From Gammaproteobacteria bacterium (GTDB lineage Bacteria > Pseudomonadota > Gammaproteobacteria > JAJDOJ01): 33,500 nt of DNA. Positions 3,229 to 20,561 of this stretch are shown piece by piece. The notes beneath the pieces were generated by a model. It saw only the letters and a program-made list of their open reading frames with translations. It ran no database searches and was not told the origin of the DNA. Position 1 is the stretch's first letter; each line of letters opens with the position of its first letter. Made by a program: the position numbers and the translations under genes. Where the stretch lies: positions 1 through 33,500 of the forward strand of contig JALVEU010000140.1 in the NCBI GenBank assembly GCA_027030565.1, given 5' to 3'.

Positions 3229-3741
3229 TCACACGCCGCCGCTGTGGACGACCTCGTAGTAGAGCTTCTCGAGCTCGCGCTTGTGCTCAGCCTCCTCCTT
3301 GGCCAAAAAGACGAACAGGTCGCGGATGGGACCCTCCGGGGCCGACTCGGCCAGGGACTGGTACTGCTCCATGGCCGTTTTCTCGCGGCCCATGGCGTAC
3401 TGCAGGATGGACTGATCGTCGGGATGCTCGCCCAGATCCGGGATGTGGATGTGGTCGGAGAAGCGGGTGTTGCTGGGCGGCGTCTTGACCTTCTCCTTGA
3501 GCTGGTCCTCAAGGCCCGGGGTCTTGGCCAGGTTCATGAACAGGTCGTAGTGGCGCTGTTCCTCCTGGGCCAGCTCGTCCACCAGCCAGCGGATGTTCTT
3601 GCTCACCTTGGGCGCCAGGTCCCGGTAGAAGTCCCGCGCGGTGCGCTCGAACTCCGAGGCGGTCTCCAGGATCTCGGCCAACGTCGTCTTGGACTGGATG
3701 CGCGCGTAGGCGCTGGGCTGTCCCTCGGTCGGCTCGCTCAT
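3229..3741 (-). CDS. Ferritin-like/rubrerythrin-family di-iron protein without a rubredoxin domain
   Basis: Duplicated E-x6-Y...EExxH pattern (ERTARDFY...EEQRH; EKTAMEQY...EEAEH). The ATG at 3741 overlaps the upstream stop (ATGA). Confidence 0.85.
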   Translation of the reverse strand: MSEPTEGQPSAYARIQSKTTLAEILETASEFERTARDFYRDLAPKVSKNIRWLVDELAQEEQRHYDLFMNLAKTPGLEDQLKEKVKTPPSNTRFSDHIHIPDLGEHPDDQSILQYAMGREKTAMEQYQSLAESAPEGPIRDLFVFLAKEEAEHKRELEKLYYEVVHSGGV

Positions 3742-5591
3742 GCCGTCTTCTCCAGTTGCGTGAGACAAGCGTCGATGCTCGCCGCCACCCGGTGGCCGTC
3801 GGCCACGGCATGGACCACATCGGGGCCGTGCACATCGTCACCGGCGGCCCACAACCAGGGCACCGCAGTGCGCCCCTCCTCGTCCACCTGCAGGCGCCCC
3901 CGCACCCATTCGAGCTGTTCGATCAGATCCTCGCCGAGCAGGCTCATGTCGGCCATCTGACCGATGGCCTCGACCACCCACTCGCCCTCGTGGAAGCGCT
4001 CGTCCTCGGGGTCCAGCTCGGGGGCGAACCGGCCCTTCTCGTCGAAGATGGACTTCACCCGCCAGGTGACCAGCCCCTTGATGCGGCCGTCCTCGATCAC
4101 CACCTCGCGGGGTCCTCGCGAATCCAGGATCTCGATGCCCTCCTCGCGCGCCTCCTTGACCTCCACCGGGTCGGCCAGGAAGTGATCGAAGTCCTCCAGC
4201 GCCACCACGGTGATGCGCACCTCGCCGTACTTCTGCATCTGGAAACGGGCCATGGTGCGGGCGATGTCCATGGCCACGTTGCCGCCGCCGATGACCACGG
4301 CGGTCTGCGGCACGTCCAGCGCGCGGCCCTCGCCCGCCTCGCGCAGCAGGTCCACCGCGCGCTTGACGTCCTCATGCTCCGAGCCCGGGATGCGCGTGGA
4401 ACGGCCCATCTGCAGGCCGATGGCCAACACCACGGCGTCGAACTCCTCACGCAGCGCCTCCATGGTCACATCCCGACCCACGCGGGTGTTGTAGCGGATC
4501 TCCACGCCCAGGGACTCGATGACCTCGACCTCCCGGTCCAGGATCTCCTCCGGCAGGCGGTAGTAGGGGATGCCGTAGCGGGTCATGCCGCCGGCCTTGG
4601 GCTGCGCCTCGAAGACCACCACCCGATGGCCCTTCTTGACCAGATCGTAGGCGGCGGTGAGCCCGGCCGGCCCCGCGCCGACGATGGCCACGGATCGGCC
4701 GGTGACGTAGTCGGCCTTGCCCTCGGCGGCGATCGCCTTGATGCGTTCGTGGGGAACCCGATCCGTGGCATAGCGCTTGAGCCAGCGGATCGCCACGGGC
4801 TCTCCGCGACGCCCGATGGAGCAGGCGGCCTCGCAGCGGTGGGTGCAGACCCGGCCGCAGACCTGGGAGAACGGATTGGTGCGGTACATCCAGCGCACCG
4901 CCTCCTCCGGCTCCCCGCGCCAGATGGCCCGGATGTACTCGGGGGCGTGCATGTGCGTGGGACAGGCGTCGTGGCACATGCCGCACTGCACGCAGCGCGA
5001 GGCCTCGATGATCGCCTGCTGATCGTCGTAGCCCAGCACCATCTCCTGGAAGTTGTCCACCCGTTCCTCGGGCGGCAGCTCCGGCATGGGCTGGCGCTCC
5101 AGGTCCAGGAGGTCGTTGGTGGGCGTCTTGGTCCAGCCCAGCGGATAGGGTGTGCCGTGGATGCCGTGCTCGTCCGGCAGCACGAAGTAGCTGTCGATCT
5201 CCTCTTGCGTGCAGGTGTGCACGTACTCGCGCGACAGCTTGATGGCGCTGGTGGGGCAGATGTCCACGCACAAGGCGCACCAGCAGCAGCGTCCGTAGTC
5301 GATGGCCGGGCGCAATGGCCGGATCCCCTTGACCGGGTCCTCCGGGGCCCCCGGCACGTGGACCATGGTGATGGCCGCGTTGTCGCAGACCTTCTGGCAG
5401 CTCCCGCAGCCGATGCAGGCGTTCCAGTCGTTGAGGTGAAAGCCCCGGTAGATCTCCGCGGCCGGCCGTGGTTCCAACGGCTCGGTCACCGGCGGCCGGA
5501 ACAGGAACTGCAGGTTCTTGAGCGGCGCCAGCAGCGAGCCGCGGTCCTCGTAACGGACCTCCGAGCGCCGTGCCTTGGGCTTACCGGTCAT
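3738..5591 (-). CDS. NuoI/MbxN-like 2x[4Fe-4S] domain fused to a GltD/NfnB-like FAD-dependent NAD(P)H oxidoreductase
   Basis: N-terminal YRGFH..CIGCGSCQKVC and IDYGRCCWCALCVDICP (NuoI-like). Then EASRCVQCGMCHDACP, GRVCTHRCEAAC, VGAGPAG, GIPYYRLP, VIGGGNVAMD and AAGD (GltD family). Confidence 0.9.
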   Translation of the reverse strand: MTGKPKARRSEVRYEDRGSLLAPLKNLQFLFRPPVTEPLEPRPAAEIYRGFHLNDWNACIGCGSCQKVCDNAAITMVHVPGAPEDPVKGIRPLRPAIDYGRCCWCALCVDICPTSAIKLSREYVHTCTQEEIDSYFVLPDEHGIHGTPYPLGWTKTPTNDLLDLERQPMPELPPEERVDNFQEMVLGYDDQQAIIEASRCVQCGMCHDACPTHMHAPEYIRAIWRGEPEEAVRWMYRTNPFSQVCGRVCTHRCEAACSIGRRGEPVAIRWLKRYATDRVPHERIKAIAAEGKADYVTGRSVAIVGAGPAGLTAAYDLVKKGHRVVVFEAQPKAGGMTRYGIPYYRLPEEILDREVEVIESLGVEIRYNTRVGRDVTMEALREEFDAVVLAIGLQMGRSTRIPGSEHEDVKRAVDLLREAGEGRALDVPQTAVVIGGGNVAMDIARTMARFQMQKYGEVRITVVALEDFDHFLADPVEVKEAREEGIEILDSRGPREVVIEDGRIKGLVTWRVKSIFDEKGRFAPELDPEDERFHEGEWVVEAIGQMADMSLLGEDLIEQLEWVRGRLQVDEEGRTAVPWLWAAGDDVHGPDVVHAVADGHRVAASIDACLTQLEKTA

Positions 5592-5610
5592 GGCCGTCCC
5601 CTGGAATACG

Positions 5611-5696
5611 CACCGCGAAGGCGCGAAGCATATGTGTTTGGAGAAACGAGTACACCAATTCCATTTTCTCTTCGCGTCCTTCGCGCCTTGGCGGTG
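5611..5696. repeat. Intergenic inverted repeat of the CACCGCGAAGGCGCGAAG family around an AT-rich spacer
   Basis: caccgcgaaggcgcgaag (5611-5628) pairs with cttcgcgccttggcggtg (5679-5696) at 17/18. An extra cttcgcgtc unit is at 5670-5678. The same arms recur at 6873-7054. Confidence 0.85.
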
Positions 5697-5708
5697 AAAA
5701 ATATGACA

Positions 5709-6851
5709 TCACCGGTCCACCTCCGGCGGGCAGGCATCCAGCGTGAACATGATCTGGGCCACGTCCTCGATGCGGGCGCCACGGGCCAGGTGCTCCAGGA
5801 CCTGCACCGCGTGCATCATGGAGGCGCCGCGCACGTGGACCCGGTAGGGCTTCTCGCCCCCGTCGGAGACCACGTACCAGGCGAGCTCCCCCTTGGAGGA
5901 CTCCACCCGCGTGTAGGCCTCGCCGGCCGGGACCTTCCAGGCCAGGGGGTTGGGGATCGGCGCGCGCACCGGACCCGGGATCTCCGGGAGCCGCTCGATC
6001 ACCTGGCGCACGATGCGGATGCTCTGGACCAGCTCGGCACGGCGCACCAGGGTGCGGGCGTAGGCGTCGCCCGCCGACTCGGTGGGGATGTCGAACTCGA
6101 GCTGGTCGTAGACCAGATACGGGTCGTCGCGGCGCACGTCGAAGGCCAGGCCCGTGGCGCGCAGATTGGGTCCCGTCACACCCAGCTCCAAGGCGGTCTC
6201 CTGATCCAGCACCCCGACCCCCTTGGCGCGGTCCACCAGCACCTGATTGCGGAAGAACAGGTTGTCGTAGTCGGGCAGGCGCGATTCCAGATAGTCCATG
6301 GTCGCCGCCACCCGACCCAGGAAGCCGGGCGGGACGTCGCGCCGTACGCCCCCGGGGATGTTGAAGATGTGATAGACACGGCCCCCACTGAGCTCCTCGA
6401 ACAGGTCGAGAATGCGATCCCGGTCGGCCACACCCCAGAACATATTGGTGTACATGCCGGTGGTGGAGGCATGGCCGCCGAAGGTGAACAGATGCGCGGC
6501 GATGCGGGAGAGCTCGAGCTGGAGCACACGCAGCCACTGGGCCCGCTCGGGCACCTCCAGCCCGCAGAGCTCCTCCACCGCCAGGGAATAGGACACCTCC
6601 ATGGGCACCGGGTCCGGCACGCAGATCCGGGGCACCAGGGCGATGTTCTGAATCCACAGCCGCCCCTCCATGAGCTTCTCGAAACCGCGGTGCAGATAGC
6701 CGGCGTCGGCCTTGCCCTCGATCACCCGGTCGCCGTGCAGGCGCAGCTTGAAGGCGTAGTTGCCCTCGATGCCGGGGTGGTTGGGCCCGATGAAGAGCTC
6801 GTACTCGTGGCTCGGCGGATGACTCCGGGCCTGGTAGTTCTCAGGACGCAT
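5709..6851 (-). CDS. NuoD/group-4 hydrogenase large-subunit homolog of MbxL/MbsL type (not a NiFe hydrogenase)
   Basis: IGPNHPG, GYLHRGFEKL, ELSRIAAHL, GVTGPNLRATG...DVRR, ESSKGE. RICVPD and DACPPEVDR replace the two CxxC NiFe motifs. Confidence 0.9.
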   Translation of the reverse strand: MRPENYQARSHPPSHEYELFIGPNHPGIEGNYAFKLRLHGDRVIEGKADAGYLHRGFEKLMEGRLWIQNIALVPRICVPDPVPMEVSYSLAVEELCGLEVPERAQWLRVLQLELSRIAAHLFTFGGHASTTGMYTNMFWGVADRDRILDLFEELSGGRVYHIFNIPGGVRRDVPPGFLGRVAATMDYLESRLPDYDNLFFRNQVLVDRAKGVGVLDQETALELGVTGPNLRATGLAFDVRRDDPYLVYDQLEFDIPTESAGDAYARTLVRRAELVQSIRIVRQVIERLPEIPGPVRAPIPNPLAWKVPAGEAYTRVESSKGELAWYVVSDGGEKPYRVHVRGASMMHAVQVLEHLARGARIEDVAQIMFTLDACPPEVDR

Positions 6852-6872
6852 GGGGACTCACCATCGGTCACT

Positions 6873-7054
6873 CACCGCGAAGACGCGAAGTAGCTGTAGG
6901 CCGGATAAGCGAAGCGCATCCGGCACGCCGAGGTTCCAATCGCCCGATGCGCTGCGCTTATCGGGCCTACGGCTTGCCCTGCCCGATGTGCCACCACGAT
7001 CGGGTCCGCGAGGAAGCGCCGTTCGTTCTCGGTGCCCTTCGCGCCTTCGCGGTG
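6873..7054. repeat. Second CACCGCGAAG-family inverted repeat pair, enclosing a REP doublet
   Basis: caccgcgaagacgcgaag (6873-6890) and cttcgcgccttcgcggtg (7037-7054) are 17/18 complementary. Confidence 0.85.
6896..6970. repeat. GTAG-family REP doublet (REPIN/BIME-like), 75 nt
   Basis: gtaggccggataagcgaagcgcatccggc (6896-6924) and the inverted gcccgatgcgctgcgcttatcgggcctac (6942-6970). Each unit is a GTAG foot plus a hairpin, resembling enterobacterial REP. Confidence 0.9.
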
Positions 7055-7062
7055 CACGCCCA

Positions 7063-7647
7063 TCAGTCCTCCCGGCGGCTGTAGCGCTGTTCGTCTGGGG
7101 GGATGGCGATACCGCCCCCCTGGGCCTCGAGCTCCTTGAGCCAATCGGGGCGGTACTCCTGCCAGTTGAAGAATTGATTGATATAGGCCTCGCTGTCGAA
7201 GTCCTTGCGCATGGGCGGAGGGCCGTCCCACTCGGTGAGGATGAACTTCTCCATGAACGGGCTGCCCTCGAAATAGACGCCGAACATCTCGTAGATGTCG
7301 CGCTCGAAGAAGGCTGCGGGCTTGTAGAGATCGTAGACCGACAGATACCTGCCAGGCTCGCGCGGGATGCGCGTGTGCGCCGAAATCAGGGACTGGGTCT
7401 CATAGGACCACACGTGGTAGATCAGCTCGAACTCGCCCTCCGCGATCCAGTCCACGCAGGTGATGGCCGACAAATGCACGTAGGAGGCCTTGCCCTTGAG
7501 GAGCTCAAGGAGGGTGGGCAGGGCGTCGGCATCCACGTCCAGACGCATGCGTCGCTCGCGTTTGCGTCGCATCTCCACCTGCTCGATCTCGGCGAGCAGG
7601 TCGTCCAGCCAGACCTGGAGCTCACGAGAGCCCTGGTTCATCGGCAC
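7063..7647 (-). CDS. NuoC/MbxK-like subunit
   Basis: LSAITCVDW, FELIYH, FFERDIYEMFGVYFEG, PPMRKDF (complex I 30 kDa subunit signature). Confidence 0.9.
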   Translation of the reverse strand: MPMNQGSRELQVWLDDLLAEIEQVEMRRKRERRMRLDVDADALPTLLELLKGKASYVHLSAITCVDWIAEGEFELIYHVWSYETQSLISAHTRIPREPGRYLSVYDLYKPAAFFERDIYEMFGVYFEGSPFMEKFILTEWDGPPPMRKDFDSEAYINQFFNWQEYRPDWLKELEAQGGGIAIPPDEQRYSRRED

Positions 7648-7648
7648 C

Positions 7649-8341
7649 TCACTTGAGCCGCATCCGATGGGGGATCAGGGGCTGTTGCACCTGCTGCAAC
7701 AGGGCGGTGTGCTCACCCTCGGTCTCGGGCCCATGCAGGCCGTATTGCTGCGCCTCGCCCAGCACGTCCGTGGGCGTCTGCCAGCGCTCGCCGAACAGGG
7801 CCTGCTGATTGCCCAAGTAGTGGTCGTAACGCCGGTAGTAGTCCTTCCAGCTCTCGGCCTTGCCGGTCTTGATGAGGCCCATGAGCTTGCGCATGCCGGA
7901 AACCACCGCCTCGGGCCGCGGCATGCAGCCGGCGATGTAGAGGTCGACCGGCAGGTAGTCGGCCAAGACCTTGGCGGTGGCGTAGCTCTGCCAGTACATG
8001 CCCCCGTTGACCGTACACGAACAGATGCCGATGACGTACTTGGGCGCGGGCATCTGCTCGTAGGTGAGGATGATCCGTTTGAGCGTCTTGACCGAGACGT
8101 AGCCCGTCACCAGCAGGATGTCGGCCTGGCGCGGGGTGACCATGGGCTGAATCCCCAGGCGCTCCATGTCGAAGCGCGAGGTCATCGCCGGGGGCAGCTC
8201 GATGGCCCCGCACCCGGTGCAGTAGTGCAGCATGAACAGCGAGTGCGAGCGGCAGAAGCGCACGAACTCGTCGAAGACATGGGCCAACGGATTGGTCCGC
8301 TTGGCAAAGGCCCCTTCGGTCCGGACAGGCAGCTCTTTCAT
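7649..8341 (-). CDS. NuoB/MbxJ-like [4Fe-4S] subunit
   Basis: YCTGCGAIE, RFDMERLG, PRQADILLVTG, PKYVIGICSC, VDLYIAGCMPRPE. The ATG at 8341 overlaps the upstream TGA. Confidence 0.9.
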   Translation of the reverse strand: MKELPVRTEGAFAKRTNPLAHVFDEFVRFCRSHSLFMLHYCTGCGAIELPPAMTSRFDMERLGIQPMVTPRQADILLVTGYVSVKTLKRIILTYEQMPAPKYVIGICSCTVNGGMYWQSYATAKVLADYLPVDLYIAGCMPRPEAVVSGMRKLMGLIKTGKAESWKDYYRRYDHYLGNQQALFGERWQTPTDVLGEAQQYGLHGPETEGEHTALLQQVQQPLIPHRMRLK

Positions 8342-9225
8342 GACCACATCACCACCGCTAGGCCCAGCAGACCCGCCAGGACCGGCCACTTCCACAGCGA
8401 GCCCAGCATCTGCTCGGCCCGGTAGCGCGGAAACTGAAACGCGATCGTCATGGGGATGGCCACCACCAAGAAGGCCTTGACCAGAAAATCGATCCAGGTC
8501 ACGCCACCGCCCAGGAACAGGGTGGTGTACAGGATACCGGCCGTATACAGGGAGAAACTCTGCATCACGATCAGGCTCCCCAGATACTTGCCGCCCATCT
8601 CCACCATGGGACCGGTGGCGATCTCCGCCGGGGCCACGTAGATCTCGAAGGGCTGCTTGCCCAACATGCCCTGCAGGGCGAACAGCCCCGCAAACGCCAG
8701 CAGCGGCGCCTGGAACAGCCCCCAGCCATGGGCCTGCTGGTATTCGACCATCTGCACCAGGTTGGTGGTTCCATACATCCACGACATGCCGAAGATCACG
8801 ATCACGAACGGGATGTCGTAGGCCAGCATGGCGGTGAGCGCGCGGGAGATGCCGATGGAGGCATTGGGATTGGCGCACTGGCCGGCCGCCAGCGCCATGC
8901 CCAGCGACGGCACCATCAGGAAATAGATGAGCGTGATGACGTCCGTACGGTCGGCGATTCCCGTCATCCCCGGCACGGGAATCAATGTCTCGGCGGCGAT
9001 GTAGCCCCCCACCGCCACGATGATCCCCACGTCGTGGATGAGCCCGTGGGAGATCTGGGTCTGCTTGCCGAAGAACTTCACCACGTCGTACAGGGGCTGG
9101 AAGAACGGCGGACCCACACGCCGCTGAATCTTGGCGGCGATCTTGCGCATCATGAGGAGCATGGCGAGCCCCACCACGAAGGCCACCGCGGGCATCAGCA
9201 CCAGCTCGACGATCAGCGCCATCAT
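8338..9225 (-). CDS. NuoH/MbxM-like membrane subunit
   Basis: RKIAAKIQRRVGPPFFQPLYDVVK, KQPFEI..AEIATGPMVEMGG, FPRYR. About 8 hydrophobic segments. ATGA overlap at 9222-9225. Confidence 0.9.
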   Translation of the reverse strand: MMALIVELVLMPAVAFVVGLAMLLMMRKIAAKIQRRVGPPFFQPLYDVVKFFGKQTQISHGLIHDVGIIVAVGGYIAAETLIPVPGMTGIADRTDVITLIYFLMVPSLGMALAAGQCANPNASIGISRALTAMLAYDIPFVIVIFGMSWMYGTTNLVQMVEYQQAHGWGLFQAPLLAFAGLFALQGMLGKQPFEIYVAPAEIATGPMVEMGGKYLGSLIVMQSFSLYTAGILYTTLFLGGGVTWIDFLVKAFLVVAIPMTIAFQFPRYRAEQMLGSLWKWPVLAGLLGLAVVMWS

Positions 9226-11093
9226 GCCGCCACCCACCAGAGCGCCAGGACGGTCACCCCCAGGAGCCAGGCGGCAGGCTGAACCACCCGGTAGACCCCC
9301 GCGGCGGCCTGGGCCAGCAAGTCCGTGGCGGCGACCACGGAATCCTGCAGCCACTGGAAGCTGCCGCGATACCAGGGACCGATGCGGTGCATGAGCCCGG
9401 CATAGAAGTTGTCGCTGTAGTGGTAGCGCACCTCGGCGGTGAGAAAGTGGCCGCCGGCATAGTTGTCCAGTTGATGCACGGTGCGCGCCCGGCCGCCGGC
9501 CAGGAAGATCAAGGCCCCGACACCGAAGCCGGCGAACAGGATGCCCACCACCCAGAGCATGTCCAGCCCCCCGTCCGGCCTCTCCACACCCCCCAGGGTG
9601 GGCGCCAGCACGGCCAGCCCAAGCTCACGCTGCACCGTGGTCAGCCAGTCGAGGACCAGGCCCGGGGCGAGCCCCGTGACGAACACGATGAGGGAGAGGG
9701 CGAGCATGGGTGCCAACATGGACCCGGGGACCTCGCGCACCGACTCGTGCTCCACGCGCAACTGGCCCAGGAAGATGTTGTGCAGCAGCTTATAGACCGA
9801 GACGATGGTGCCCAGGGTACCCACCACCGCCGCCACGAAGAGCAGCGGCTGCCCGTCGTCGATGAGCGCCCGGTAGATGAGCCACTTGGACACGAAGCCA
9901 TTCATGGGTGGGAGCCCCGCCAGGCCGATGATCCCGACGAGCAGCACCAGGAAGGTCAGCGGCATGCGGGTGACCAGACCGCCCAGCTTGTTGAGATCGG
10001 CCGTGCCCGTGCGGTAGACCACCGCCGTGACCGCCATGAAGAGCGCCGCCTGATAGGTCGCATGGTTGAACACGTGCATCAAGCCCCCAGCGCTCGCCAG
10101 GGCATCCCCCATGGCCACCCCCATGAGCATGTAGCCGCCCTGCCCGATGCCGTGCCAGGCGAGGAGCCAGCGCGCATCGTTCTGCTTGAGCGCCGTGAAG
10201 GTCGGCAGGACGATGGTGAAGGCGGCGATCCAGGCCAGCAGCTCGTGGGCCTCCAATGGTGTCCACGGAATGCTGAGGGCCTTGAGCGTCCCCAGCCCCA
10301 GCACCCCGAACAGGGTGAGCAGCATGGCATACAGGCCCATGCGCGAAGAGATGGCCCCCAGGAACGCCGATCCGGGTCCCGGCGTCTCGGCGTAGGCGCC
10401 CGCCTGCCAGAGGTGGAAGGGCAACAGGCCCATCTTCACGCCGAAGCCACCGGACAACAGGATCACCAGGGACCACAAAGTCCCGGCAGAGAGGTCCGGC
10501 ACCACCGCCGCCAATGCGCCAAACTCGAACGAACCGGTGAGCGCATGGGACAACACCATCGCCGCCATGACCGCCATGGCCCCCCCGATGGCATACACCA
10601 GGTACCGCAGCGCCCAGCGCACCCCCACGCCCCCGGCTGCGAGCATCAGCACGAAGCTCGCCCAGCTCACCAGTTCCCAGCCCACGAACAGGGAGAGGAA
10701 GTCGCGGGAGGCCAGGAGCACGTACATGGTCGAGGGGTTCAGGGCCAGGGCGAGCTGCAGCAGGCGCAGATCACCACCTTGCTCGGCGTAGTGCCGCCCC
10801 CAGGCGCCACTCATGAACCACGCCGCCGCCAGCGCGGCACCCGCCGTGATCACGGCGAAGAACCACGACAGGGCCGTGAACTGCCAGCTCAGGCCGTACC
10901 CCAGAACGCTGAATGCGGGGGAGGCCGGCACCGGATCCGCCCCGTAGGCCAGCGGACCCATGAACGCCACCAGCAGGAACTGCACTCCATACAACGCAGT
11001 GAGCCACGGCCCAGCCGAGGGCGAGCGCCCGAAGAGCCCCGCGGCCAGGGCGGTCAGGGCAGAGGCCAACCAGAGCCCGTCCAGCAGCGTCAC
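9222..11093 (-). CDS. MrpD/NuoL-like proton-translocating antiporter subunit (MbxH'-like)
   Basis: LFVGWELVS, GVKMGLLPFHLW, FNHATYQ, GLAGLPPMNGFVSKW. The GTG at 11093 overlaps the upstream TGA, with GAGGGG upstream. Confidence 0.88.
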   Translation of the reverse strand: MTLLDGLWLASALTALAAGLFGRSPSAGPWLTALYGVQFLLVAFMGPLAYGADPVPASPAFSVLGYGLSWQFTALSWFFAVITAGAALAAAWFMSGAWGRHYAEQGGDLRLLQLALALNPSTMYVLLASRDFLSLFVGWELVSWASFVLMLAAGGVGVRWALRYLVYAIGGAMAVMAAMVLSHALTGSFEFGALAAVVPDLSAGTLWSLVILLSGGFGVKMGLLPFHLWQAGAYAETPGPGSAFLGAISSRMGLYAMLLTLFGVLGLGTLKALSIPWTPLEAHELLAWIAAFTIVLPTFTALKQNDARWLLAWHGIGQGGYMLMGVAMGDALASAGGLMHVFNHATYQAALFMAVTAVVYRTGTADLNKLGGLVTRMPLTFLVLLVGIIGLAGLPPMNGFVSKWLIYRALIDDGQPLLFVAAVVGTLGTIVSVYKLLHNIFLGQLRVEHESVREVPGSMLAPMLALSLIVFVTGLAPGLVLDWLTTVQRELGLAVLAPTLGGVERPDGGLDMLWVVGILFAGFGVGALIFLAGGRARTVHQLDNYAGGHFLTAEVRYHYSDNFYAGLMHRIGPWYRGSFQWLQDSVVAATDLLAQAAAGVYRVVQPAAWLLGVTVLALWWVAA

Positions 11094-12667
11094 GAGCGTG
11101 CCCCTCGAGTCGGCGACCCCGCCGGCCACCCATAGGCCCGATCAGCACGGCCCATCGGGCGATCGGAACCTCTGGAGGCGGGATGCGCTTCGCTGATGCG
11201 GTCTTCGCGCTGCCCGCGCCGGGCTACCGCGCGATCACCGAGCACGGTGCGTATATAGCCCTGGACGTCGGCCGCTTGCGCGGCCATGGCCTTCAGACCA
11301 TCGCCCAGCGGGTGCAGGGCGAATACGGAACCCACGAGCACCAGGCCGGCGAGGGAGGCCGTCACCAAGTCCAGCCCCCGATGCGGCCCGGGACTCGTGT
11401 AGCCGGCTTCACGCGCCAGTAGCACCGACAAGGTGCGAAACAGATAGGCCGCCTCCACAACCGTGGCCGCCATGACGGTCAGAGCGCCGAGCCACGCCAG
11501 TCCGGTGCCCAACCCCATCAGGCCCATCACGGTGAGGAGCTTGGCCCAGAAGCCCGGCAGGGGCGGCAACCCCACCAGCGACAGCGCGAACAGGATGAAC
11601 AGCCCGCTGGCCAGCCAGTGGCCGCGACCGGCGCCGCGCAGGCCTTCGATGGACCCGCCCCAACGCTCCGCCAACAGGAACAGCGCGGGCTTCACCAGCA
11701 GATGGTGCAGGGCCACGGCGAGCCCGGCGACGATGCCCGCCTCGCCCGGCACCGAGAAGGCGACGAACACGATGCCGAGCTGCCCGATGGACGAGAATGC
11801 GAACTGGCGCCGGAGGTCACGGGCCCGCCAGGCGGCCAGCTCGCCGGCCACGATGCCCAGCATGCCCAGCACCAGCATGAGTTGGGCCGCCTCGGGTTGC
11901 GGAAAGATCAACACCAAGATCCGCACCACCACCAGAACCGCGAGCTTGGACACCAGCCCCGCCAACAGCCCAGCCAGACGCCCGGATACGCTGCCATACA
12001 CCTCCGGCACCCAGCCGTTGACCGGGAACAGCTCGCCCTTGACCCCGAGGCCGATGAGCATGAGGGCAAAGGCCGCCAGCCCCACCGGGTCCTGGAGCCG
12101 CTCCGGGGCGAGTGTGGCCAGATGGGCCAGGTTCAACGTGCCGGTGCGCAGGTAGACGATGGTGATCCCGGCCAGCAGCAGCACCGAGCCCGCCGCGCTC
12201 AGCAGCAGGTAGCGCAGCGCGGCCCCCTGCGCCGCACCGGTACCGCGGCCGGCGATGAGCCCGAAGGAGGCCGCCGCCGTGAGCTCGTAGAAGACGTACA
12301 GGTTGAAGATGTCGCCGGAGAGCGCCAGACCGGTGGCCGAAGCGGTGAGCACCAGCGTGAGCGCGAACTGCTGCGGCGTGCCCTCGCGCGGCCACAACAG
12401 CAACGCCATGAGAGGCACCGCCAGCCCGAACAGCAGGGCCACGGCATCCAGATAGAAGACGATCCCCAGCGGGGGGCGGAAGCCGCCGATGGCAATGGCC
12501 ACCGTGCCACCGTCCAGGCGCGCCCATGCGACCCACAGGACGCCGATGCAGACGGCCAGCGTCCCCCAGCCCAGCCACTGTGCCAGGGCGCGCGAACTGC
12601 GCCCCAACGCTGGAGTCAGGAAGCCAGCGAGCAGGGGCAGGGCCACGGCCAGGACCACGAAGTTCAT
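11090..12667 (-). CDS. MrpD/NuoN-like antiporter subunit (MbxH-like) with a repeat-derived C-terminal tail
   Basis: GDIFNLYVFYEL, GVKGELFPVNGWVP, AFSSIGQLG, HHLLVKPALF, SLVGLPPLPGFWAK. Confidence 0.88.
   Translation of the reverse strand: MNFVVLAVALPLLAGFLTPALGRSSRALAQWLGWGTLAVCIGVLWVAWARLDGGTVAIAIGGFRPPLGIVFYLDAVALLFGLAVPLMALLLWPREGTPQQFALTLVLTASATGLALSGDIFNLYVFYELTAAASFGLIAGRGTGAAQGAALRYLLLSAAGSVLLLAGITIVYLRTGTLNLAHLATLAPERLQDPVGLAAFALMLIGLGVKGELFPVNGWVPEVYGSVSGRLAGLLAGLVSKLAVLVVVRILVLIFPQPEAAQLMLVLGMLGIVAGELAAWRARDLRRQFAFSSIGQLGIVFVAFSVPGEAGIVAGLAVALHHLLVKPALFLLAERWGGSIEGLRGAGRGHWLASGLFILFALSLVGLPPLPGFWAKLLTVMGLMGLGTGLAWLGALTVMAATVVEAAYLFRTLSVLLAREAGYTSPGPHRGLDLVTASLAGLVLVGSVFALHPLGDGLKAMAAQAADVQGYIRTVLGDRAVARRGQREDRISEAHPASRGSDRPMGRADRAYGWPAGSPTRGARS
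11132..11206. repeat. Degenerate copy of the 75-nt REP doublet inside the 3' end of the MbxH-like CDS
   Basis: Ungapped hand alignment to the reverse complement of 6896-6970 gives 60/75 identity, including part of the spacer (ggaacctc). Confidence 0.85.
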
Positions 12668-13095
12668 GCCGGACGCTCCACGGCCGGCGCGTTGCGGCTG
12701 GTCTCCGGCGGCAGGCCGGCGGCCGCGTCCAGGTCCTCGTGCAAGCGCGCCCGCAGGGTGCGCATCTCCACCGTCCCATAGGCGCGGCGCACGCGCAGCA
12801 CCAGGGCCAGGGCCAGGGCCTGCACGCCCACCCCGATGACGATGGCGGTGAGCACCAGGGCCTGGGGAATCGGGTCCACCATGGGCCCGGGAACCCGACC
12901 CTCCAGTAGAATGGGGGCGAACGCACCCTGACGAAAACCGGACAGCACCAGCAGCAGATTCACCCCAGCCTCGGCCACCGCCAGGGCCAGGACCAGACGC
13001 ACCAGATTGTCCCCCATCACCAGTCCGGCCAACCCGATGATGAGCAGGCTCACCGCACCCGTATACAGGACGATCTCCAGTGGGGGCAGGGTCAC
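12664..13095 (-). CDS. MrpC/NuoK-like subunit (MbxG-like)
   Basis: NLVRLVLAL..GVNLLLV, DPIPQALVLTAIVIG signature. The GTG start overlaps the upstream stop. Confidence 0.9.
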   Translation of the reverse strand: MTLPPLEIVLYTGAVSLLIIGLAGLVMGDNLVRLVLALAVAEAGVNLLLVLSGFRQGAFAPILLEGRVPGPMVDPIPQALVLTAIVIGVGVQALALALVLRVRRAYGTVEMRTLRARLHEDLDAAAGLPPETSRNAPAVERPA

Positions 13096-13787
13096 GGCTC
13101 AGCGGCCTCCGTCTCCTGCAGGGTGCTCATCAGGCCCGCGATCTCGGCGCCCACCTTGAGCCCTACGGCGATGTAGAGCAGCGGCAGGGTGCCGGCCGAA
13201 AACAGGCTGCCCAAGGCGCCCTTGCCCAGCATCGGTGCGAGGAAGTCGCCCTTCACCGCCAGTGCCCACAGGCCGATCAACACGAACGCCCCACCCGCCA
13301 GCCCCTCGACCCAGTTCACCACAGCGTGGTTCAGGCTGTCCCCAGGGCGGCCCAGCAGCGGCAGGAAGAAGGCGGCGGCGAGGATCACGCCCCCCTGGAA
13401 ACCGCCACCCGGAGTCAAATGGCCGTGCAGGACGATGTACAAACCCACGATCACCAGAAGCGGAAACAGGAGATCGGCCGCCGCCAGCAGGATGAACCCG
13501 CCCTCGGGATCGGGCCGCTGGTCGGCACGTCGTCTCATGCCCGAAAGGATCAGTCCCACGCCGGCGGCCGCCGCGAACAGGATTGAGAGCTCACCCAGGG
13601 TGTCGATACCGCGATAGGCCAGCACCACGGCGGTCACCAGGTTTGCCGCCCCAACGGCCTCGGGACCCTGGCCGAGGATCCCCTCTCCCGCGACCATGGG
13701 CGCCGCCCCCACCGGCAGATCCGCTGCGAGCACGAGCAGGAAGAAACCGAGGCCACCGGCAAACAGCAGCGAAGTGAAGTTACGCAT
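13092..13787 (-). CDS. MrpB/MnhB-like subunit (MbhE+MbhF-like)
   Basis: NLVTAVVLAYRGIDTLGE and HGHLTPGGGFQGG signatures. Confidence 0.9.
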   Translation of the reverse strand: MRNFTSLLFAGGLGFFLLVLAADLPVGAAPMVAGEGILGQGPEAVGAANLVTAVVLAYRGIDTLGELSILFAAAAGVGLILSGMRRRADQRPDPEGGFILLAAADLLFPLLVIVGLYIVLHGHLTPGGGFQGGVILAAAFFLPLLGRPGDSLNHAVVNWVEGLAGGAFVLIGLWALAVKGDFLAPMLGKGALGSLFSAGTLPLLYIAVGLKVGAEIAGLMSTLQETEAAEP

Positions 13788-14076
13788 CGTCGCCCGACCC
13801 CTGCAGGGAATCCCCCGGCCGCGGGTGGTTGTCGTCGCCGAGCCCCCAGAGGCCGAGGCGGCGCAGCGCCAACACCAGGATCACTCCGCTGAGACCCGCC
13901 CCCACCGCAGCCTCGGTCATGGCCACGTCCGGCGCGCGGATGATGACGAACACCACGGAGAGGGCCAACGAGACCACCGAAGAGGCCGCCACGGCGGCCA
14001 GCAGATTGGGCAGCAGCAATACCGCCAGGGCCGAGAGGATCATGATCGCCACCACCAGGACCGTGATCCAGTACAT
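13780..14076 (-). CDS. MbhD/DUF4040-like small membrane subunit (MbxD-like)
   Basis: APDVAMTEAAVGAG motif and three hydrophobic helices. TGATG overlap at 14074-14078, with GGAGG upstream. Confidence 0.85.
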   Translation of the reverse strand: MYWITVLVVAIMILSALAVLLLPNLLAAVAASSVVSLALSVVFVIIRAPDVAMTEAAVGAGLSGVILVLALRRLGLWGLGDDNHPRPGDSLQGSGDDA

Positions 14077-14396
14077 CAGCCCTCCTCCCGGGCCGGCGCT
14101 TCCCGGTCTTCCGGCGCCCGCCAGGGGCGCACGCCCGCGATGAGGAAGGCACGGGCCAGCGCCGACGAGCTCACCGGGCTCGTCACCAGGATGAAGCCGC
14201 CGATACAGACCAGCTTGGTCCACCACTCGGGGTGCAGGAAACCGATGCCGAGCAGAAACGACAGCGCGCCGAGGGTCACCGCCTTGGTGCCCGTCTGGAT
14301 GCGGTTGAATACGTCCGGCATGCGCACGAGCCCCAGTGCGCCCAGGAAGGAGAACGCCGCCCCGATCAGCAGGAACACGTCACCGACCCAGCGCAT
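14076..14396 (-). CDS. MrpG/MnhG-like subunit (MbxC-like)
   Basis: GALGLVRMPDVFNRIQTGTK..TLG and TSPVSSSALARA. GAGGTG lies before the ATG at 14396. Confidence 0.9.
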   Translation of the reverse strand: MRWVGDVFLLIGAAFSFLGALGLVRMPDVFNRIQTGTKAVTLGALSFLLGIGFLHPEWWTKLVCIGGFILVTSPVSSSALARAFLIAGVRPWRAPEDREAPAREEG

Positions 14397-14468
14397 GCAC
14401 CACACCTCTGCTGCGGCCCACCGCGCCGGCACCAGACCGGACCGAGCCGGCAGCCGCGGGCAGTGCTC

Positions 14469-14729
14469 TCACGAACGATTCCCTTCCACCACACGGGCCA
14501 GGGCCACCATGCCCACAAAGGAGAGCACGCCGTAGATCATGGCCACGTCGAGGTAGAGGGGGCTTTCGAACACCGCGGCAAAACCGGCCAGCGCCACGGT
14601 GGTCACCACCGAGACCATGTCGGCGCTCACAAAGCGGTCCGGGTTGGTGGGACCCACCACCAGGCGCCCCAGCCCCAGCAGCACGGCTGCACACAAGAGT
14701 ACGGTGGCGACGATCTCGACGGCGGTCAT
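14469..14729 (-). CDS. MrpF/MnhF-like subunit (MbxB-like)
   Basis: RLVVGPTNPDRFVSAD and YLDVAMIYGVLSFVG. GGAG lies before the ATG at 14729. Confidence 0.9.
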   Translation of the reverse strand: MTAVEIVATVLLCAAVLLGLGRLVVGPTNPDRFVSADMVSVVTTVALAGFAAVFESPLYLDVAMIYGVLSFVGMVALARVVEGNRS

Positions 14730-14819
14730 CGTATCTCCCTGGACGGCGACCCGTCCCCAGCTTGCCCGCAATCTACACCGATCGGGCGGCCCGCTACTGA
14801 TCTGGATCAGACCCGATGT

Positions 14820-15332
14820 CTACTGGAGAAAACCCCGAATGTGGCGTTCGAAGCCCGCAGCGATCCGCCGGGTGGCCGACTCCAGATCGGTACCGGGTGA
14901 GGCGTCGATCCAATGGACCAGTATCCGGTCCCCACGCACGTCCACCGACAACGTACCCGGCGTCAGTGTAATGCTGTTGGCCAGTAAGAGCCGCCCAAGA
15001 CGTGATTTCAGCCCGGTCCGCACCTCCACCACCGCCGGCCGGATGGGCAACGACGGCGACAAGACACGTCTGGCCACGTCCAGATTGGCGCGCACCAGGG
15101 CGTAGAAGAAATAGCCGAGATAGGCGACCAGGGCAACGGCTGCCGAAGGCACCAGGCGCACCCCGCCGAGGATGGCGAGCCGCGGCCCTGCGACCGCCAT
15201 GGTCGCCGCCACCACCAGCACCCCGGCGAGCAGTTCCTGTCCGTCGGACGTGCCGGTGAGCAGGACCCAGAGCAGCATGCCCGCAGCAAAACCGACCACG
15301 TACTGGGACAGACGGGGCGAGACTTCGGTCAT
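14820..15332 (-). CDS. MrpE/MnhE-like subunit (MbxA-like)
   Basis: ANLDVARRVL..P and LLANSITLTPGTLSVD signature. The start at 15332 has GGGGAG upstream; an alternative ATG is at 15347. Confidence 0.9.
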   Translation of the reverse strand: MTEVSPRLSQYVVGFAAGMLLWVLLTGTSDGQELLAGVLVVAATMAVAGPRLAILGGVRLVPSAAVALVAYLGYFFYALVRANLDVARRVLSPSLPIRPAVVEVRTGLKSRLGRLLLANSITLTPGTLSVDVRGDRILVHWIDASPGTDLESATRRIAAGFERHIRGFLQ

Positions 15333-15389
15333 GGATCCACTCCCCATAGTGGTCGCCCGGCCACTGAGGACCGGGCCTTCCGGAAGGCC

Positions 15390-15528: not shown

Positions 15529-16362
<834 letters not shown>

Positions 16363-16466
16363 TCACAACGGGGACGCAGCAGACCTGCAGCGCGGGCCAG
16401 GCACCGATGCAGGATGCATCTCCCCATTTATGCCAACGGCTCCGCGTTCTGCGTGCGAAATCCCCC

Positions 16467-17612: not shown

Positions 17613-17632
17613 AATGGTCCGTCAGACACACC

Positions 17633-17663
17633 AAAAGGCCCGGCCCCTCACCGGGGCCGGACC
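17633..17663 (-). terminator. Intrinsic terminator-like hairpin between dnaK and dnaJ
   Basis: The minus strand reads ggtccggcccc-ggtga-ggggccgggcc followed by tttt. Confidence 0.6.
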
Positions 17664-17733
17664 ACACGTAGCCCGCTCTGCCCGCCAGAGGCGGGCGCTG
17701 CGGTGGGAACATCCGGCGCCGGCCGGAGACCCG

Positions 17734-19686
<1,953 letters not shown>

Positions 19687-19740
19687 CGTTGTTCTCCACG
19701 CCTCTCGAATCTGAAAAATTTTCCGAAAATCTGCTTGCAG

Positions 19741-19768
19741 ACATGGGGGCGCGACCGCCCCCTTTCAA
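19741..19768 (-). promoter_or_regulatory. Sigma32 (RpoH) heat-shock promoter of dnaK
   Basis: The minus strand reads TTGAAA-N14-CCCCATGT. Confidence 0.8.
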
Positions 19769-19805
19769 CCAGTGCCGCTCTGTCCTCGCCCGGGGATCCC
19801 GCCGC

Positions 19806-20387: not shown

Positions 20388-20466
20388 GGTCGCTCCATAG
20401 CGCAACTGGGTTGAATCCGTAAACCGACCCCGCCGGTTGTACGGGGTGCCCGAATGCATTCGAGCG

Positions 20467-20495: not shown

Positions 20496-20561
20496 GGATG
20501 TGCGGCCCGCCCGACGCCGTGCTCATCGATCGTGCCCCGCCCCTGCCCATACCGTTCCGGT

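What the first reader, a model, noticed from the sequence alone, without database searches (positions are those of the whole stretch)
3229..15332. Complete MBX/MBS-type (archaeal sulfane-sulfur reductase-like) respiratory complex in a proteobacterial chromosome
Seen: transcription order is MrpE, F, G, MbhD-like, MrpB, MrpC, MrpD, MrpD/NuoL, NuoH, NuoB, NuoC, NuoD, NuoI(+GltD), ferritin-like. Many junctions are ATGA/GTGA/TGATG overlaps. There are no nuoA/E/F/G/J genes, no hyp genes and no maturation protease. Known: this is the 13-gene layout of the Pyrococcus furiosus mbx/mbs operon, an ion-pumping reductase of polysulfide sulfane sulfur regarded as intermediate between group-4 hydrogenases and complex I. 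From memory, related clusters occur in Thermotogae. Inference: this gammaproteobacterium-like host may conserve energy by NAD(P)H-linked sulfur/polysulfide reduction, or run the reaction in reverse during sulfur oxidation. Automated pipelines would probably split it into 'Mrp antiporter' and 'NADH dehydrogenase'.
Basis: partly seen in the sequence, partly recalled or inferred. Interest (0 to 1): 0.88.

Follow-up and report, generated by a model that had tools for sequence, protein, structure and literature searches.

The report
Bacterial NAD(P)H-linked MBX/MBS respiratory complex
This vent sulfur-oxidising bacterium carries a complete ion-pumping complex closely matching the archaeal sulfur reductase MBS but wired to NAD(P)H; the type has already been noted in print, and its real job in bacteria is still untested.

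Summary
Window 3229-15347 (minus strand) holds 14 co-directional genes: MrpE/F/G, MbhD, MnhB, MrpC, two MrpD-like, NuoH/B/C/D, a NuoI::GltD fusion and a rubrerythrin-like protein. 8 of 13 junctions overlap.

All seven core subunits compared with PDB chains hit P. furiosus MBS (6u8y) best, by wide margins. The MbsL and MbsJ hallmarks are kept, and the quinone-ligand residues are missing. In a tree the NuoD-like subunit sits inside an MBS/MBX clade that holds Thermococcus, apart from the genome's own canonical NuoD.

It is not new. Degli Esposti 2015 described mbx-like operons with gltD and a terminal rubrerythrin in Thermotoga and proteobacteria. Mitchell 2024 noted an Mrp-Mbx complex in the Riftia symbiont.

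- The NuoI::GltD fusion is the bacterial norm.
- MbsL-type genes occur in 21 of 400 class genomes, and 19 of those 21 carry dsrA.
- The rubrerythrin gene follows GltD in 13 of 13 proteobacterial loci but 1 of 27 others.
- A fold model supports rubrerythrin docking on GltD, and the GltD+Rbr module has moved between two MBX backbones.

Substrate and direction remain untested.

The parts
14820..15347 (-). MbsA-like (MrpE family) subunit; the start is ATG 15347 or ATG 15332
   Evidence: Pfam MNHE, E 6e-38; start candidates
14469..14771 (-). MbsB-like (MrpF family); likely start ATG 14729
   Evidence: Pfam MrpF_PhaF, E 4e-15
14076..14432 (-). MbsC-like (MrpG family)
   Evidence: Pfam PhaG_MnhG_YufB, E 2e-22
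13780..14076 (-). MbsD-like (MbhD family); ATG 14076 overlaps the preceding stop (TGATG) and follows a GGAGGAGGG Shine-Dalgarno
   Evidence: Pfam MbhD, E 2e-18
13092..13787 (-). MbsE-like (MnhB / MbhE)
   Evidence: Pfam MnhB, E 6e-21, and MbhE, E 6e-4
12664..13095 (-). MbsG-like (MrpC / NuoK family)
   Evidence: Pfam Oxidored_q2, E 4e-19
11090..12667 (-). MbsH-like antiporter-type pump subunit
   Evidence: Best PDB hit 6u8y_H at 192 bits; next is MrpD 7qru_D at 133 bits. Residues checked.
9222..11093 (-). MbsH'-like antiporter-type pump subunit with a C-terminal extension (the HL helix region in MBS)
   Evidence: Best PDB hit 6u8y_X at 197 bits over residues 65-630; next is MbhH at 122 bits
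8338..9225 (-). MbsM-like (NuoH family) membrane anchor of the peripheral arm
   Evidence: Best PDB hit 6u8y_M at 196 bits; next hit 60 bits
7649..8341 (-). MbsJ-like (NuoB family) carrier of the proximal [4Fe-4S] cluster; motif C-T-G-C ... C ... C
   Evidence: Best PDB hit 6u8y_J at 207 bits, aligned without gaps over 151 residues; NdhK 109 bits, MbhJ 100 bits
7063..7647 (-). MbsK-like (NuoC family)
   Evidence: Best PDB hit 6u8y_K at 90 bits; next hit 47 bits
6852..7062 (-). 211-nt structured spacer between K and L: REP-like nested inverted repeats. An insertion, not a gene.
   Evidence: Sequence. RNA fold -117.5 kcal/mol, z -5.47, 0 of 200 shuffles as low. K/L spacing varies widely among relatives and is under 30 nt in many.
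5709..6851 (-). MbsL-like (NuoD / NiFe large-subunit family) without a NiFe site. It keeps one N-terminal Cys (RICVPDP) and one C-terminal Cys (LDACPPEVDR).
   Evidence: Best PDB hit 6u8y_L at 415 bits; Nqo4 272 bits; MbhL 147 bits. Tree.
5592..5708 (-). 117-nt spacer between L and N with the same outer inverted repeat (AAGGCGCGAAGG ... CTTCGCGCCTTCGCGG)
   Evidence: The fold as a whole is not significant (z -1.07).
3738..5591 (-). Fusion protein, 617 aa. MbsN-like 2x[4Fe-4S] part (about residues 12-133) plus a GltD/NfnB-like part (about residues 165-611) with 2x[4Fe-4S], FAD and an NAD(P)H site.
   Evidence: Pfam. PDB: 6u8y_N 82 bits for residues 12-133; NfnI large subunit 5jca_L 229 bits for residues 165-611. 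NCBIfam NF010590, 821 bits over the full length.
3229..3741 (-). Rubrerythrin/ferritin-like di-iron protein, 170 aa, with no rubredoxin domain. ATG 3741 overlaps the GltD stop (ATGA).
   Evidence: Pfam Rubrerythrin, E 4e-14. Invariant E, ExxH, E, ExxH in 12 sequences. Junction. Complex model.

Best explanation
The cluster encodes a bacterial member of the MBS/MBX branch of the complex-I superfamily.

Shown by sequence: it has the same 13-subunit backbone as the P. furiosus membrane-bound sulfane-sulfur reductase. That backbone is an Mrp-type ion module, two antiporter-like pump subunits, and a NuoH/B/C/D-type arm with no NiFe site and no quinone ligands. The ferredoxin-accepting subunit MbsN is fused to a GltD/NfnB-type FAD, NAD(P)H and 2x[4Fe-4S] domain.

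Inferred electron path: NAD(P)H, then FAD, then four [4Fe-4S] clusters, then the proximal cluster in the MbsJ-like subunit. There an S-S bond of a polysulfide, organic polysulfane or persulfide is cleaved in the hydrophobic chamber. The reaction is coupled to H+/Na+ movement through MbsH, MbsH' and the Mrp module.

Inferred physiology: the NAD(P)H/sulfane couple has a small driving force, so the enzyme is probably reversible. It would reduce stored sulfur when the cell is energy-starved and anoxic. It could run backwards when the membrane is energised.

Supported by a model only: the rubrerythrin-like protein is probably an extra, proteobacteria-specific subunit bound to the flavoprotein domain. 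I infer that it protects against oxidants, or repairs, an oxidant-labile Fe-S enzyme in hosts that meet oxygen.
For: 1. Order and families of all 14 genes, with 8 of 13 junctions overlapping.

2. 7 of 7 core subunits compared with PDB chains hit the matching MBS chain of 6u8y best.
- L: 415 bits, against 272 for Nqo4 and 147 for MbhL.
- J: 207 against 109.
- M: 196 against 60.
- H': 197 against 122.
- H: 192 against 133.
- K: 90 against 47.
- N-terminal part of N: 82 against 42.5.

3. MBS hallmarks named in Yu 2020 (sections read).
- The two retained MbsL cysteines align (RICVPDP and LDACPPEVDR).
- Nqo4 H38 and Y87 are replaced by E and V, as in MbsL.
- The MbsJ C-x-x-C...C...C motif aligns with MbsJ without any gap.
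- 7 of 10 named pump residues are identical.

4. Tree of 85 NuoD-type rows. The window lies in a 15-row clade (SH-aLRT 100): 9 rows titled Pseudomonadota, 5 unnamed and 1 titled Bathyarchaeota. That clade lies inside a 60-row clade (96) that holds both Thermococci rows. The genome's canonical NuoD falls in the other, 20-row group.

5. The C-terminal 450 residues of N match NADPH-type flavoproteins: NfnI large subunit 229 bits and GltD 168 bits.

6. Link to sulfur. The genome has dsrA, soxB, RuBisCO and a canonical nuoD/nuoF. In an even sample of the class, 19 of 21 genomes with an MbsL-type gene have dsrA, against 103 of the other 380.

7. T. maritima mbxA rises 4.4-fold on S0 (PMC9431562, passages).

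8. Rubrerythrin-like protein.
- Its start overlaps the GltD stop (ATGA).
- It lies directly downstream in 8 of 8 and 5 of 5 loci of the two proteobacterial clades, against 1 of 27 other loci.
- The complex model scored 0.66 with best control 0.00. That mark was reached by 58 of 80 solved complexes and 2 of 110 mismatched pairs. The runs agree in at least 0% of contacts, and partner pLDDT is at least 67.
- The GltD domains of all 15 Rbr-linked operons form one clade (100). Their MbsL subunits do not: AU p 6e-9.
Against: - No activity, expression or knockout data exist for any proteobacterial member.
- The two MbsL cysteines that are kept are not needed for catalysis in P. furiosus. Their conservation therefore says little about the substrate.
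- Three-Cys coordination of the proximal cluster cannot be read from sequence.
- Three of ten named pump residues differ: MbsH E219 is K, MbsH H330 is V, and MbsH' K248 is R.
- NAD(P)H to sulfane sulfur offers only about 50-100 mV (recalled standard potentials). That is thin for a complex with two pumps plus an Mrp module.
- In this lineage sulfur globules are periplasmic (recalled), so the cytoplasmic substrate is unclear.
- The dsrA association is among related genomes and is not independent evidence.
- One of three complex runs scored 0.01, and the alignments used were my own.
- The groups for the AU test were named after the tree had been seen.
Confidence: 0.5

Rival explanations
1. Same enzyme, opposite physiological direction. 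It would be a membrane-potential-driven sulfide/polysulfide:NAD(P)+ oxidoreductase that gives sulfur-oxidising autotrophs a cheap route to NAD(P)H. This would replace or supplement reverse electron flow through complex I.
For: - The host is a dsrA+, soxB+, RuBisCO+ autotroph that needs NAD(P)H.
- The gene is enriched in dsrA-bearing genomes: 19 of 21.
- The sulfane/NAD(P)H couple is near equilibrium (recalled potentials), so direction would follow the membrane potential.
Against: - Reverse catalysis has never been shown for MBS.
- In Endoriftia the genes are co-expressed with the rTCA cycle, hydrogenases and V-type ATPase rather than with the CBB cycle and sulfide oxidation.
- The genome keeps a canonical complex I for reverse flow.
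Confidence: 0.2
2. An alternative NAD(P)H:quinone oxidoreductase. The GltD domain would replace the NuoEFG module, and the chamber would bind a quinone.
For: - The MBS chamber is hydrophobic and as wide as that of complex I (Yu 2020).
- NCBIfam scores the L subunit above the cut-off of a NuoD model: NF004739, 449 bits against a cut-off of 360.
Against: - The quinone head-group ligands Nqo4 H38 and Y87 are E and V here.
- The subunits are far closer to MBS than to any complex I.
- The NuoB-like motif is C-x-x-C as in MbsJ, not the adjacent CC of complex I.
- The genome already has a canonical nuo.
Confidence: 0.1
3. A ferredoxin:NAD(P)+ oxidoreductase, the older Mbx model adopted by Degli Esposti 2015. 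GltD would be the NAD(P)+-reducing exit and there would be no sulfur chemistry.
For: Stated for mbx-like operons in PMC4758237. The GltD/NfnB family does link ferredoxin-level clusters to NADP(H).
Against: - GltD is fused to the distal end of the cluster chain, where ferredoxin docks in MBS. Electrons passing between ferredoxin and NAD(P)+ would bypass the proximal cluster and chamber, which is where coupling to the pumps occurs (Yu 2020).
- The old model was replaced for P. furiosus by direct sulfane reduction.
- No RnfC above cut-off was found, so no need for it can be inferred either way.
Confidence: 0.1
4. A group-4 membrane-bound [NiFe] hydrogenase (MBH-like) or a formate hydrogenlyase relative.
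For: Same superfamily and a similar Mrp-linked layout.
Against: - Only 2 of the 4 NiFe cysteines are present.
- MbhL scores 147 bits against 415 for MbsL.
- There are no hyp or protease genes in the cluster.
Confidence: 0.01

Closest known systems
[quoted passage not shown] 2020, PMC7684303)
   Same: - The same 13 subunits in the same gene order.
- All seven core subunits compared hit the matching MBS chain best.
- MbsL keeps the same two cysteines and lacks the quinone ligands.
- The MbsJ cluster motif aligns without gaps.
- There are two pump subunits, H and H'.
   Different: - MbsN is fused to a 450-residue GltD/NfnB-type NAD(P)H flavoprotein. The likely donor is therefore NAD(P)H rather than ferredoxin.
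- A translationally coupled rubrerythrin-like gene is added.
- Three of ten named pump residues differ.
- The host is a mesophile-type sulfur-oxidising autotroph, not a sulfur-reducing heterotrophic archaeon.
Bacterial 'mbx-like' operon with gltD and rubrerythrin (Degli Esposti 2015, PMC4758237); T. maritima MBX (PMC9431562)
   Same: The paper describes a gltD-related flavoprotein at the NuoI position and an operon that 'often terminates with rubrerythrin' in Thermotoga and proteobacteria. That is exactly this layout.
   Different: - The paper says NuoI is 'substituted'. Here, and in at least 44 of 68 loci, the NuoI-like domain is kept and fused.
- Among my loci the rubrerythrin gene was found only with proteobacterial operons, apart from one weak case. 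It was not next to the Thermotogota locus L043.
- The paper assumes ferredoxin:NADP+ activity.
Putative Mrp-Mbx complex of the Riftia symbiont 'Endoriftia' (Mitchell et al. 2024, PMC11636981)
   Same: It is a gammaproteobacterial vent sulfur oxidiser, read as S0 reduction coupled to a sodium-motive force, with direction stated as unknown. Tubeworm-symbiont proteins are 79-82% identical to the window's MbsL-like protein.
   Different: - I saw only passages of the paper and could not see its supplements. Identity of its gene set with this one is therefore inferred, not checked.
- This genome showed no V-type ATPase subunit I, unlike the co-expression partners reported there.
Respiratory complex I (Nuo) and group-4 [NiFe] hydrogenase MBH
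   Same: Shared NuoB/C/D/H/I-type arm and antiporter-like subunits.
   Different: - No NuoEFG/A/J in the cluster and no quinone ligands. A separate canonical nuo exists on contig C24.
- No complete NiFe cysteine set.

Membership tests
MBS/MBX (membrane-bound sulfane-sulfur reductase) | 13 genes in the order A-B-C-D-E-G-H-H'-M-J-K-L-N, an Mrp module followed by a Nuo-like arm | tested here: met
   Pfam family and order for all genes. Chain-specific best hits for H, H', M, J, K, L and N. A-G were assigned by Pfam only.
MBS/MBX (membrane-bound sulfane-sulfur reductase) | MbsL keeps only two of the four NiFe cysteines (C85 and C385) | tested here: met
   RICVPDP aligns with MbsL RICVPEP, and LDACPPEVDR aligns with LDNCPPDIDR. 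The same holds in all complete rows of the window's clade.
MBS/MBX (membrane-bound sulfane-sulfur reductase) | Absence of the quinone head-group ligands (Nqo4 H38 and Y87) | tested here: met
   In the Nqo4 alignment, H38 aligns with E29 and Y87 with V, as in MbsL. The feature is stated in Yu 2020.
MBS/MBX (membrane-bound sulfane-sulfur reductase) | MbsJ has a shortened cluster loop, so the proximal [4Fe-4S] has only three Cys ligands (C28, C93, C123; C25 is free) | tested here: inconclusive
   The 151-residue alignment to 6u8y_J has no gap, and CTGC...C...C aligns with C25/C28/C93/C123. Loop length is therefore as in MbsJ. The real coordination cannot be read from sequence.
MBS/MBX (membrane-bound sulfane-sulfur reductase) | Two antiporter-like pump subunits with the conserved charged axis | tested here: met
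   H and H' are both present. 7 of 10 named residues are identical. MbsH E219 is K, MbsH' K248 is R, and MbsH H330 is V, with H321/H322 next to it.
MBS/MBX (membrane-bound sulfane-sulfur reductase) | Stand-alone MbsN that takes electrons from ferredoxin | tested here: not met
   The MbsN-like part is the N-terminus of a 617-aa fusion with a GltD/NfnB-like flavoprotein. The Thermococci loci L046 and L051 have the short, unfused form.
MBS/MBX (membrane-bound sulfane-sulfur reductase) | Large subunit branches with archaeal MbsL rather than with NuoD | tested here: met
   A 60-row clade (SH-aLRT 96) holds the window and both Thermococci rows. The genome's own NuoD lies in the 20-row outgroup. No named Ehr, Fpo or MbhL rows were in the tree.
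MBS/MBX (membrane-bound sulfane-sulfur reductase) | Polysulfide / dimethyl trisulfide reductase activity that is lost on ferricyanide treatment | not testable with these tools
   This needs enzyme assays.
Bacterial mbx-like operon (Degli Esposti 2015) | gltD-related flavoprotein at the NuoI position, and an operon ending in rubrerythrin | tested here: met
   Literature passages.
Group-4 [NiFe] hydrogenase (MBH) | Four Cys ligands of the NiFe site, with hyp and protease maturation genes | tested here: not met
   Only two Cys are present. No maturation genes lie in the cluster.
Respiratory complex I (NuoA-N) | NuoEFG input module, NuoA/J, adjacent CC motif in NuoB, and quinone ligands in NuoD | tested here: not met
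   None of these genes is in the cluster. The NuoB-like motif is C-x-x-C. The quinone ligands are absent. A separate nuoD/nuoF lies on contig C24.
Stand-alone Mrp Na+/H+ antiporter | Seven genes mrpA-G forming an operon of their own | tested here: not met
   The Mrp-type genes run without a break into the NuoH/B/C/D genes, with overlapping junctions.

The most novel reading that the evidence does not exclude
The rubrerythrin-like di-iron protein is a true fifteenth subunit bound to the NAD(P)H flavoprotein domain. The GltD+Rbr pair is a portable input module that proteobacteria have moved between two different MBX backbones. This module would let an oxidant-labile, archaeal-type sulfane reductase work in microaerobic sulfur-storing bacteria. 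There the complex would act as a reversible valve between stored sulfur, NAD(P)H and the membrane potential, including potential-driven NAD(P)+ reduction by sulfide.
Probability: 0.2. Interest if true: 0.7.

Novelty: new member of a known kind. Interest (0 to 1): 0.4.

Why it matters
MBS is regarded as an evolutionary step between hydrogenases and complex I, and it has been studied only in a hyperthermophilic archaeon.

This operon shows the NAD(P)H-linked bacterial form in a vent sulfur oxidiser. MbsL-type genes occur in about one in twenty sampled genomes of its class, nearly always together with dsrA. Public pipelines label the large subunit as ordinary complex I, so metabolic models of sulfur-oxidising symbionts and free-living relatives probably overlook it.

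If it is a reversible NAD(P)H:sulfane-sulfur, ion-translocating enzyme, it could explain two things. One is how sulfur-storing bacteria gain energy from stored sulfur under anoxia. The other is how they might make reductant cheaply.

The function is still unmeasured. The value of this window is as a well-characterised example and a source of testable predictions, not as a discovery of a new kind.

Tried and rejected
Tools that gave nothing:
The unnamed representatives P0121-P0270 could therefore not be named, and they were used only to build alignment A1.
- The look-up of sequencing runs listed no RNA holder. The DNA is held by vent-metagenome runs of 3 studies, one of which may be the source.

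Literature searches: 'mbx' together with 'Chromatiales' gave 0 papers. The four terms 'mbx, Mrp, Gammaproteobacteria, sulfur' gave 1 paper, which I did not open.

Own-genome searches, in a genome 93.5% complete, so these do not show absence:
- V-type ATPase subunit I: no match.
- ATP-citrate lyase Citrate_bind: no match, but the control rang nowhere, so the result is uninformative.
- RnfC: nothing above the cut-off.

Readings rejected:
- Hydrogenase, because the cysteine set is incomplete.
- Canonical complex I.
- Two separate systems (Mrp plus Nuo), because the junctions overlap.

Other points:
- The promoter scan found 0 sigma-70-like sites, and the terminator-like hits all lie inside genes. 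Operon ends are therefore set by the flanking genes only.
- The L/N spacer fold is not better than shuffles (z -1.07).
- I did not test sHdr genes, named Ehr/Fpo/MbhL references, or whether cultured Allochromatium or Sedimenticola strains carry the operon.
- Supplements of Yu 2020 (MbsJ loop alignment) and of Mitchell 2024 (gene lists) were not seen and may bear on membership test 4 and on the Endoriftia comparison.

Papers, and what I saw of each:
- PMC4758237: passages.
- PMC9431562: passages.
- PMC7684303: outline and sections 7, 9, 10 and 11.
- PMC11636981: passages.
- All others: search listings only.

From memory, not from any call: redox potentials, the periplasmic location of sulfur globules, dark sulfur reduction by Chromatium, and the likeness of the spacer to enterobacterial REP.

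Full report
**What is there**

On the minus strand, from 15347 down to 3229, lie 14 co-directional genes. Pfam assigns them as follows:
- MrpE
- MrpF
- MrpG
- MbhD
- MnhB/MbhE
- MrpC/NuoK
- two Proton_antipo_M subunits (525 and about 623 aa)
- NuoH
- NuoB
- NuoC
- NuoD
- a 617-aa protein with a NuoI-like di-cluster part followed by Fer4_20 and Pyr_redox_2 (GltD type)
- a 170-aa rubrerythrin-like protein

Eight of the 13 junctions overlap (TGATG, ATGA, GTGA or 8 nt), including the GltD/rubrerythrin junction at 3741.

Two junctions are wide: K/L at 211 nt and L/N at 117 nt. Both carry the same inverted repeat. The K/L spacer folds far better than its shuffles (z -5.47). K/L and L/N spacing varies widely among relatives, from overlaps to several hundred nt, and both junctions are tight in many. 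I read the spacers as REP-like insertions.

No nuoA/E/F/G/J, hyp or protease gene is in the cluster. The flanks are dapB-dnaJ-dnaK-grpE-hrcA on one side and an alpha/beta hydrolase on the other.

**What it is**

Against all PDB chains, each core subunit I tested hits the matching chain of the P. furiosus MBS structure 6u8y best, with a wide gap to the next family.

| Subunit | Bits to 6u8y chain | Next best |
|---|---|---|
| L | 415 | Nqo4 272; MbhL 147 |
| J | 207 | 109 |
| M | 196 | 60 |
| H' | 197 | 122 |
| H | 192 | 133 |
| K | 90 | 47 |
| N, first 133 residues | 82 | 42.5 |

I read the MBS paper's sections on its hallmarks and checked them here.
- The two cysteines that MbsL retains from the NiFe site align (RICVPDP and LDACPPEVDR).
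- The quinone ligands Nqo4 H38 and Y87 are E and V, as in MbsL.
- The MbsJ motif C-x-x-C...C...C aligns with MbsJ over 151 residues without a gap. The shortened loop that leaves one iron without a cysteine in MBS therefore has the same length here.
- Seven of the ten named pump residues of MbsH and MbsH' are identical. MbsH E219 is K, MbsH H330 is V with two histidines next to it, and MbsH' K248 is R.

**Phylogeny**

The best 80 loci were kept.

A tree of 85 NuoD-type proteins was built from 83 loci, the window and the genome's own canonical NuoD, with no rows dropped.
- The window sits in a 15-row clade (SH-aLRT 100). Nine rows carry Pseudomonadota titles: Chromatiales, Sedimenticola, Thiodiazotropha, Thiohalobacterales, Thiobacillaceae and others. 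Five rows are unnamed and one is titled Bathyarchaeota.
- Its nearest outside rows are two Spirochaetota-titled MAG loci, L028 and L029.
- It lies inside a 60-row clade (96) that also holds the two Thermococci rows.
- The genome's canonical NuoD, on contig C24 next to nuoF, falls in the other, 20-row group.

Named Ehr, Fpo and MbhL references were not available to me, so that part remains open.

**The input module**

Residues 165-611 of the fusion protein match NfnI large subunit (229 bits), GltD (168 bits) and related NAD(P)H flavoproteins. NCBIfam has a full-length model for the whole fusion: NF010590, 'putative oxidoreductase', 821 bits, below its cut-off of 946.

By tblastn, 28 of the 83 loci show all 14 pieces from A to GltD in the window's order. 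Many of the rest are cut by contig ends.

The NuoI-like and GltD-like parts lie in one open frame in 44 of 68 loci by my script. Three further long ORFs (L043, L045, L071) were missed by its filter. The Thermococci loci have the short, unfused form. The NAD(P)H-linked fusion is thus the usual bacterial form of MBX.

**The rubrerythrin-like protein**

It has all four di-iron motifs (E, ExxH, E, ExxH), invariant in 12 sequences, and no rubredoxin domain. Its nearest solved relatives are uncharacterised ferritin-like proteins, at E 2e-4.

Among loci that extend at least 600 nt past GltD, a homologue lies directly downstream as follows:
- 8 of 8 loci of the window's clade;
- 5 of 5 loci of a second proteobacterial clade;
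- 1 of 27 other loci, and that one weakly, at 27% identity.

A complex model of the fusion protein with this partner scored 0.66, with best control 0.00.
- That mark was reached by 58 of 80 solved complexes and 2 of 110 mismatched pairs.
- The three runs scored 0.72, 0.66 and 0.01, and agree in at least 0% of contacts.
- Partner pLDDT is at least 67.
- My own alignments were used.
- The modelled interface is residues 397-567 of the fusion against the partner's conserved 47-53, 92-99, 109-114 and C-terminal 155-169.

In a tree of 45 GltD domains, truncated loci were left out. All 15 Rbr-linked domains form one clade (100), and the second clade nests inside the first. In the MbsL tree, holding the two clades together costs 202.8 log-likelihood units (AU p 6e-9). 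The groups were named after the tree had been seen.

I read this as exchange of a GltD+Rbr module between two MBX backbones. NuoI-part identities follow the backbone, while GltD and Rbr identities do not.

**Context**

The genome is 2.78 Mb in 398 contigs and 93.5% complete. It has dsrA, soxB, RuBisCO, two NiFe hydrogenase loci and a canonical nuo. The DNA is held by hydrothermal-vent metagenome runs.

In an even sample of its class, 21 of 400 scored genomes have an MbsL-type gene.
- 16 have the window's type, at 70% identity or more.
- 6 have the second type.
- One genome has both.

19 of these 21 have dsrA. So do 103 of the other 380, one of which was not scored for MbsL. These genomes are related, so this is an association and not a test.

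**Mechanism**

Shown: homology, architecture, motifs and the NAD(P)H-type domain.

Inferred:
- NAD(P)H feeds FAD and four clusters to the proximal cluster, which cleaves S-S bonds of a sulfane substrate.
- Turnover is coupled to ion movement.
- The small redox span (recalled potentials) makes the enzyme reversible in vivo.

I give 0.5 to this reading with the direction left open, 0.2 to the reverse mode as the main role, and about 0.1 each to quinone reduction and to ferredoxin:NAD(P)+ exchange.

**Novelty**

[quoted passage not shown] Mitchell 2024 reports a putative Mrp-Mbx complex in the Riftia symbiont, of unknown direction. T. maritima mbxA responds to S0.

The window is therefore a new member of a known kind.

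In my six literature searches I found nothing in print on three points: the fusion being retained rather than substituted, the restriction of Rbr to proteobacterial operons, and the modelled docking with module exchange. The searched library is limited and supplements were closed.

Noticed in passing
window 6852-7062 and 5592-5708 (minus strand): REP-like inverted repeats sit inside the operon at the K/L and L/N junctions. Both share the outer arms AAGGCGCGAAGG ... CTTCGCGCCTTCGCGG. The K/L copy encloses a second long hairpin ending in ...TTATCCGGCCTAC, which resembles enterobacterial REP (recalled). The 12-mer occurs 31 times, with at most 1 mismatch, on 23 contigs of the genome.
   Followed up: partly
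L056, L057, L060, L061, L068, L069, L073 (loci): A second proteobacterial MBX type, found in loci titled Thiodiazotropha sp., Rhodospirillaceae, Gallionellaceae, Rhodocyclales, Burkholderiales and Chromatiaceae. Its MbsL is only 46-49% identical to the window's. In the six loci that reach the C-terminus, the C-terminal Cys is lost (HTYPPEIER). Yet its GltD and Rbr parts are 53-61% identical and nest inside the window's clade. One class genome (G217) holds both types.
   Followed up: partly
L027 (JAIVTC010000306.1): A 4.9-kb contig titled 'Candidatus Bathyarchaeota archaeon' carries H'-M-J-K-L genes 60-79% identical to the window's and nests among Gammaproteobacteria in the tree. It is probably a mis-binned bacterial contig.
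   Followed up: no
L043 (Thermotogae MAG): The gene order is permuted: J-K-L-N::GltD comes first, followed by A-B-C-D-E-G-H-H'-M. The two halves of the operon can therefore be arranged either way.
   Followed up: no
window 15529-21623 (minus strand): A heat-shock gene row, hrcA-grpE-dnaK-dnaJ followed by dapB, lies directly upstream of the operon on the same strand.
   Followed up: no
window 21773-22645 (+), 22665-24329 (+), 24380-25300 (-): NAD kinase, a RecN-like SMC protein and a Fur-family regulator. The longest Fur ORF is 306 aa with the FUR domain only at residues 174-294, so the real start is probably later.
   Followed up: no
window 28148-31315 (-) and 63-1910 (+): A 1055-aa secreted-type thermolysin (M4) peptidase with PKD domains, and a GGDEF diguanylate cyclase with a prenyltransferase-like N-terminal domain.
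   Followed up: no
NCBIfam NF009413: A curated family is described as a trifunctional protein that joins a GltD-like part to a ferritin domain. That is a possible natural fusion parallel to the GltD + rubrerythrin-like pairing seen here.
   Followed up: no
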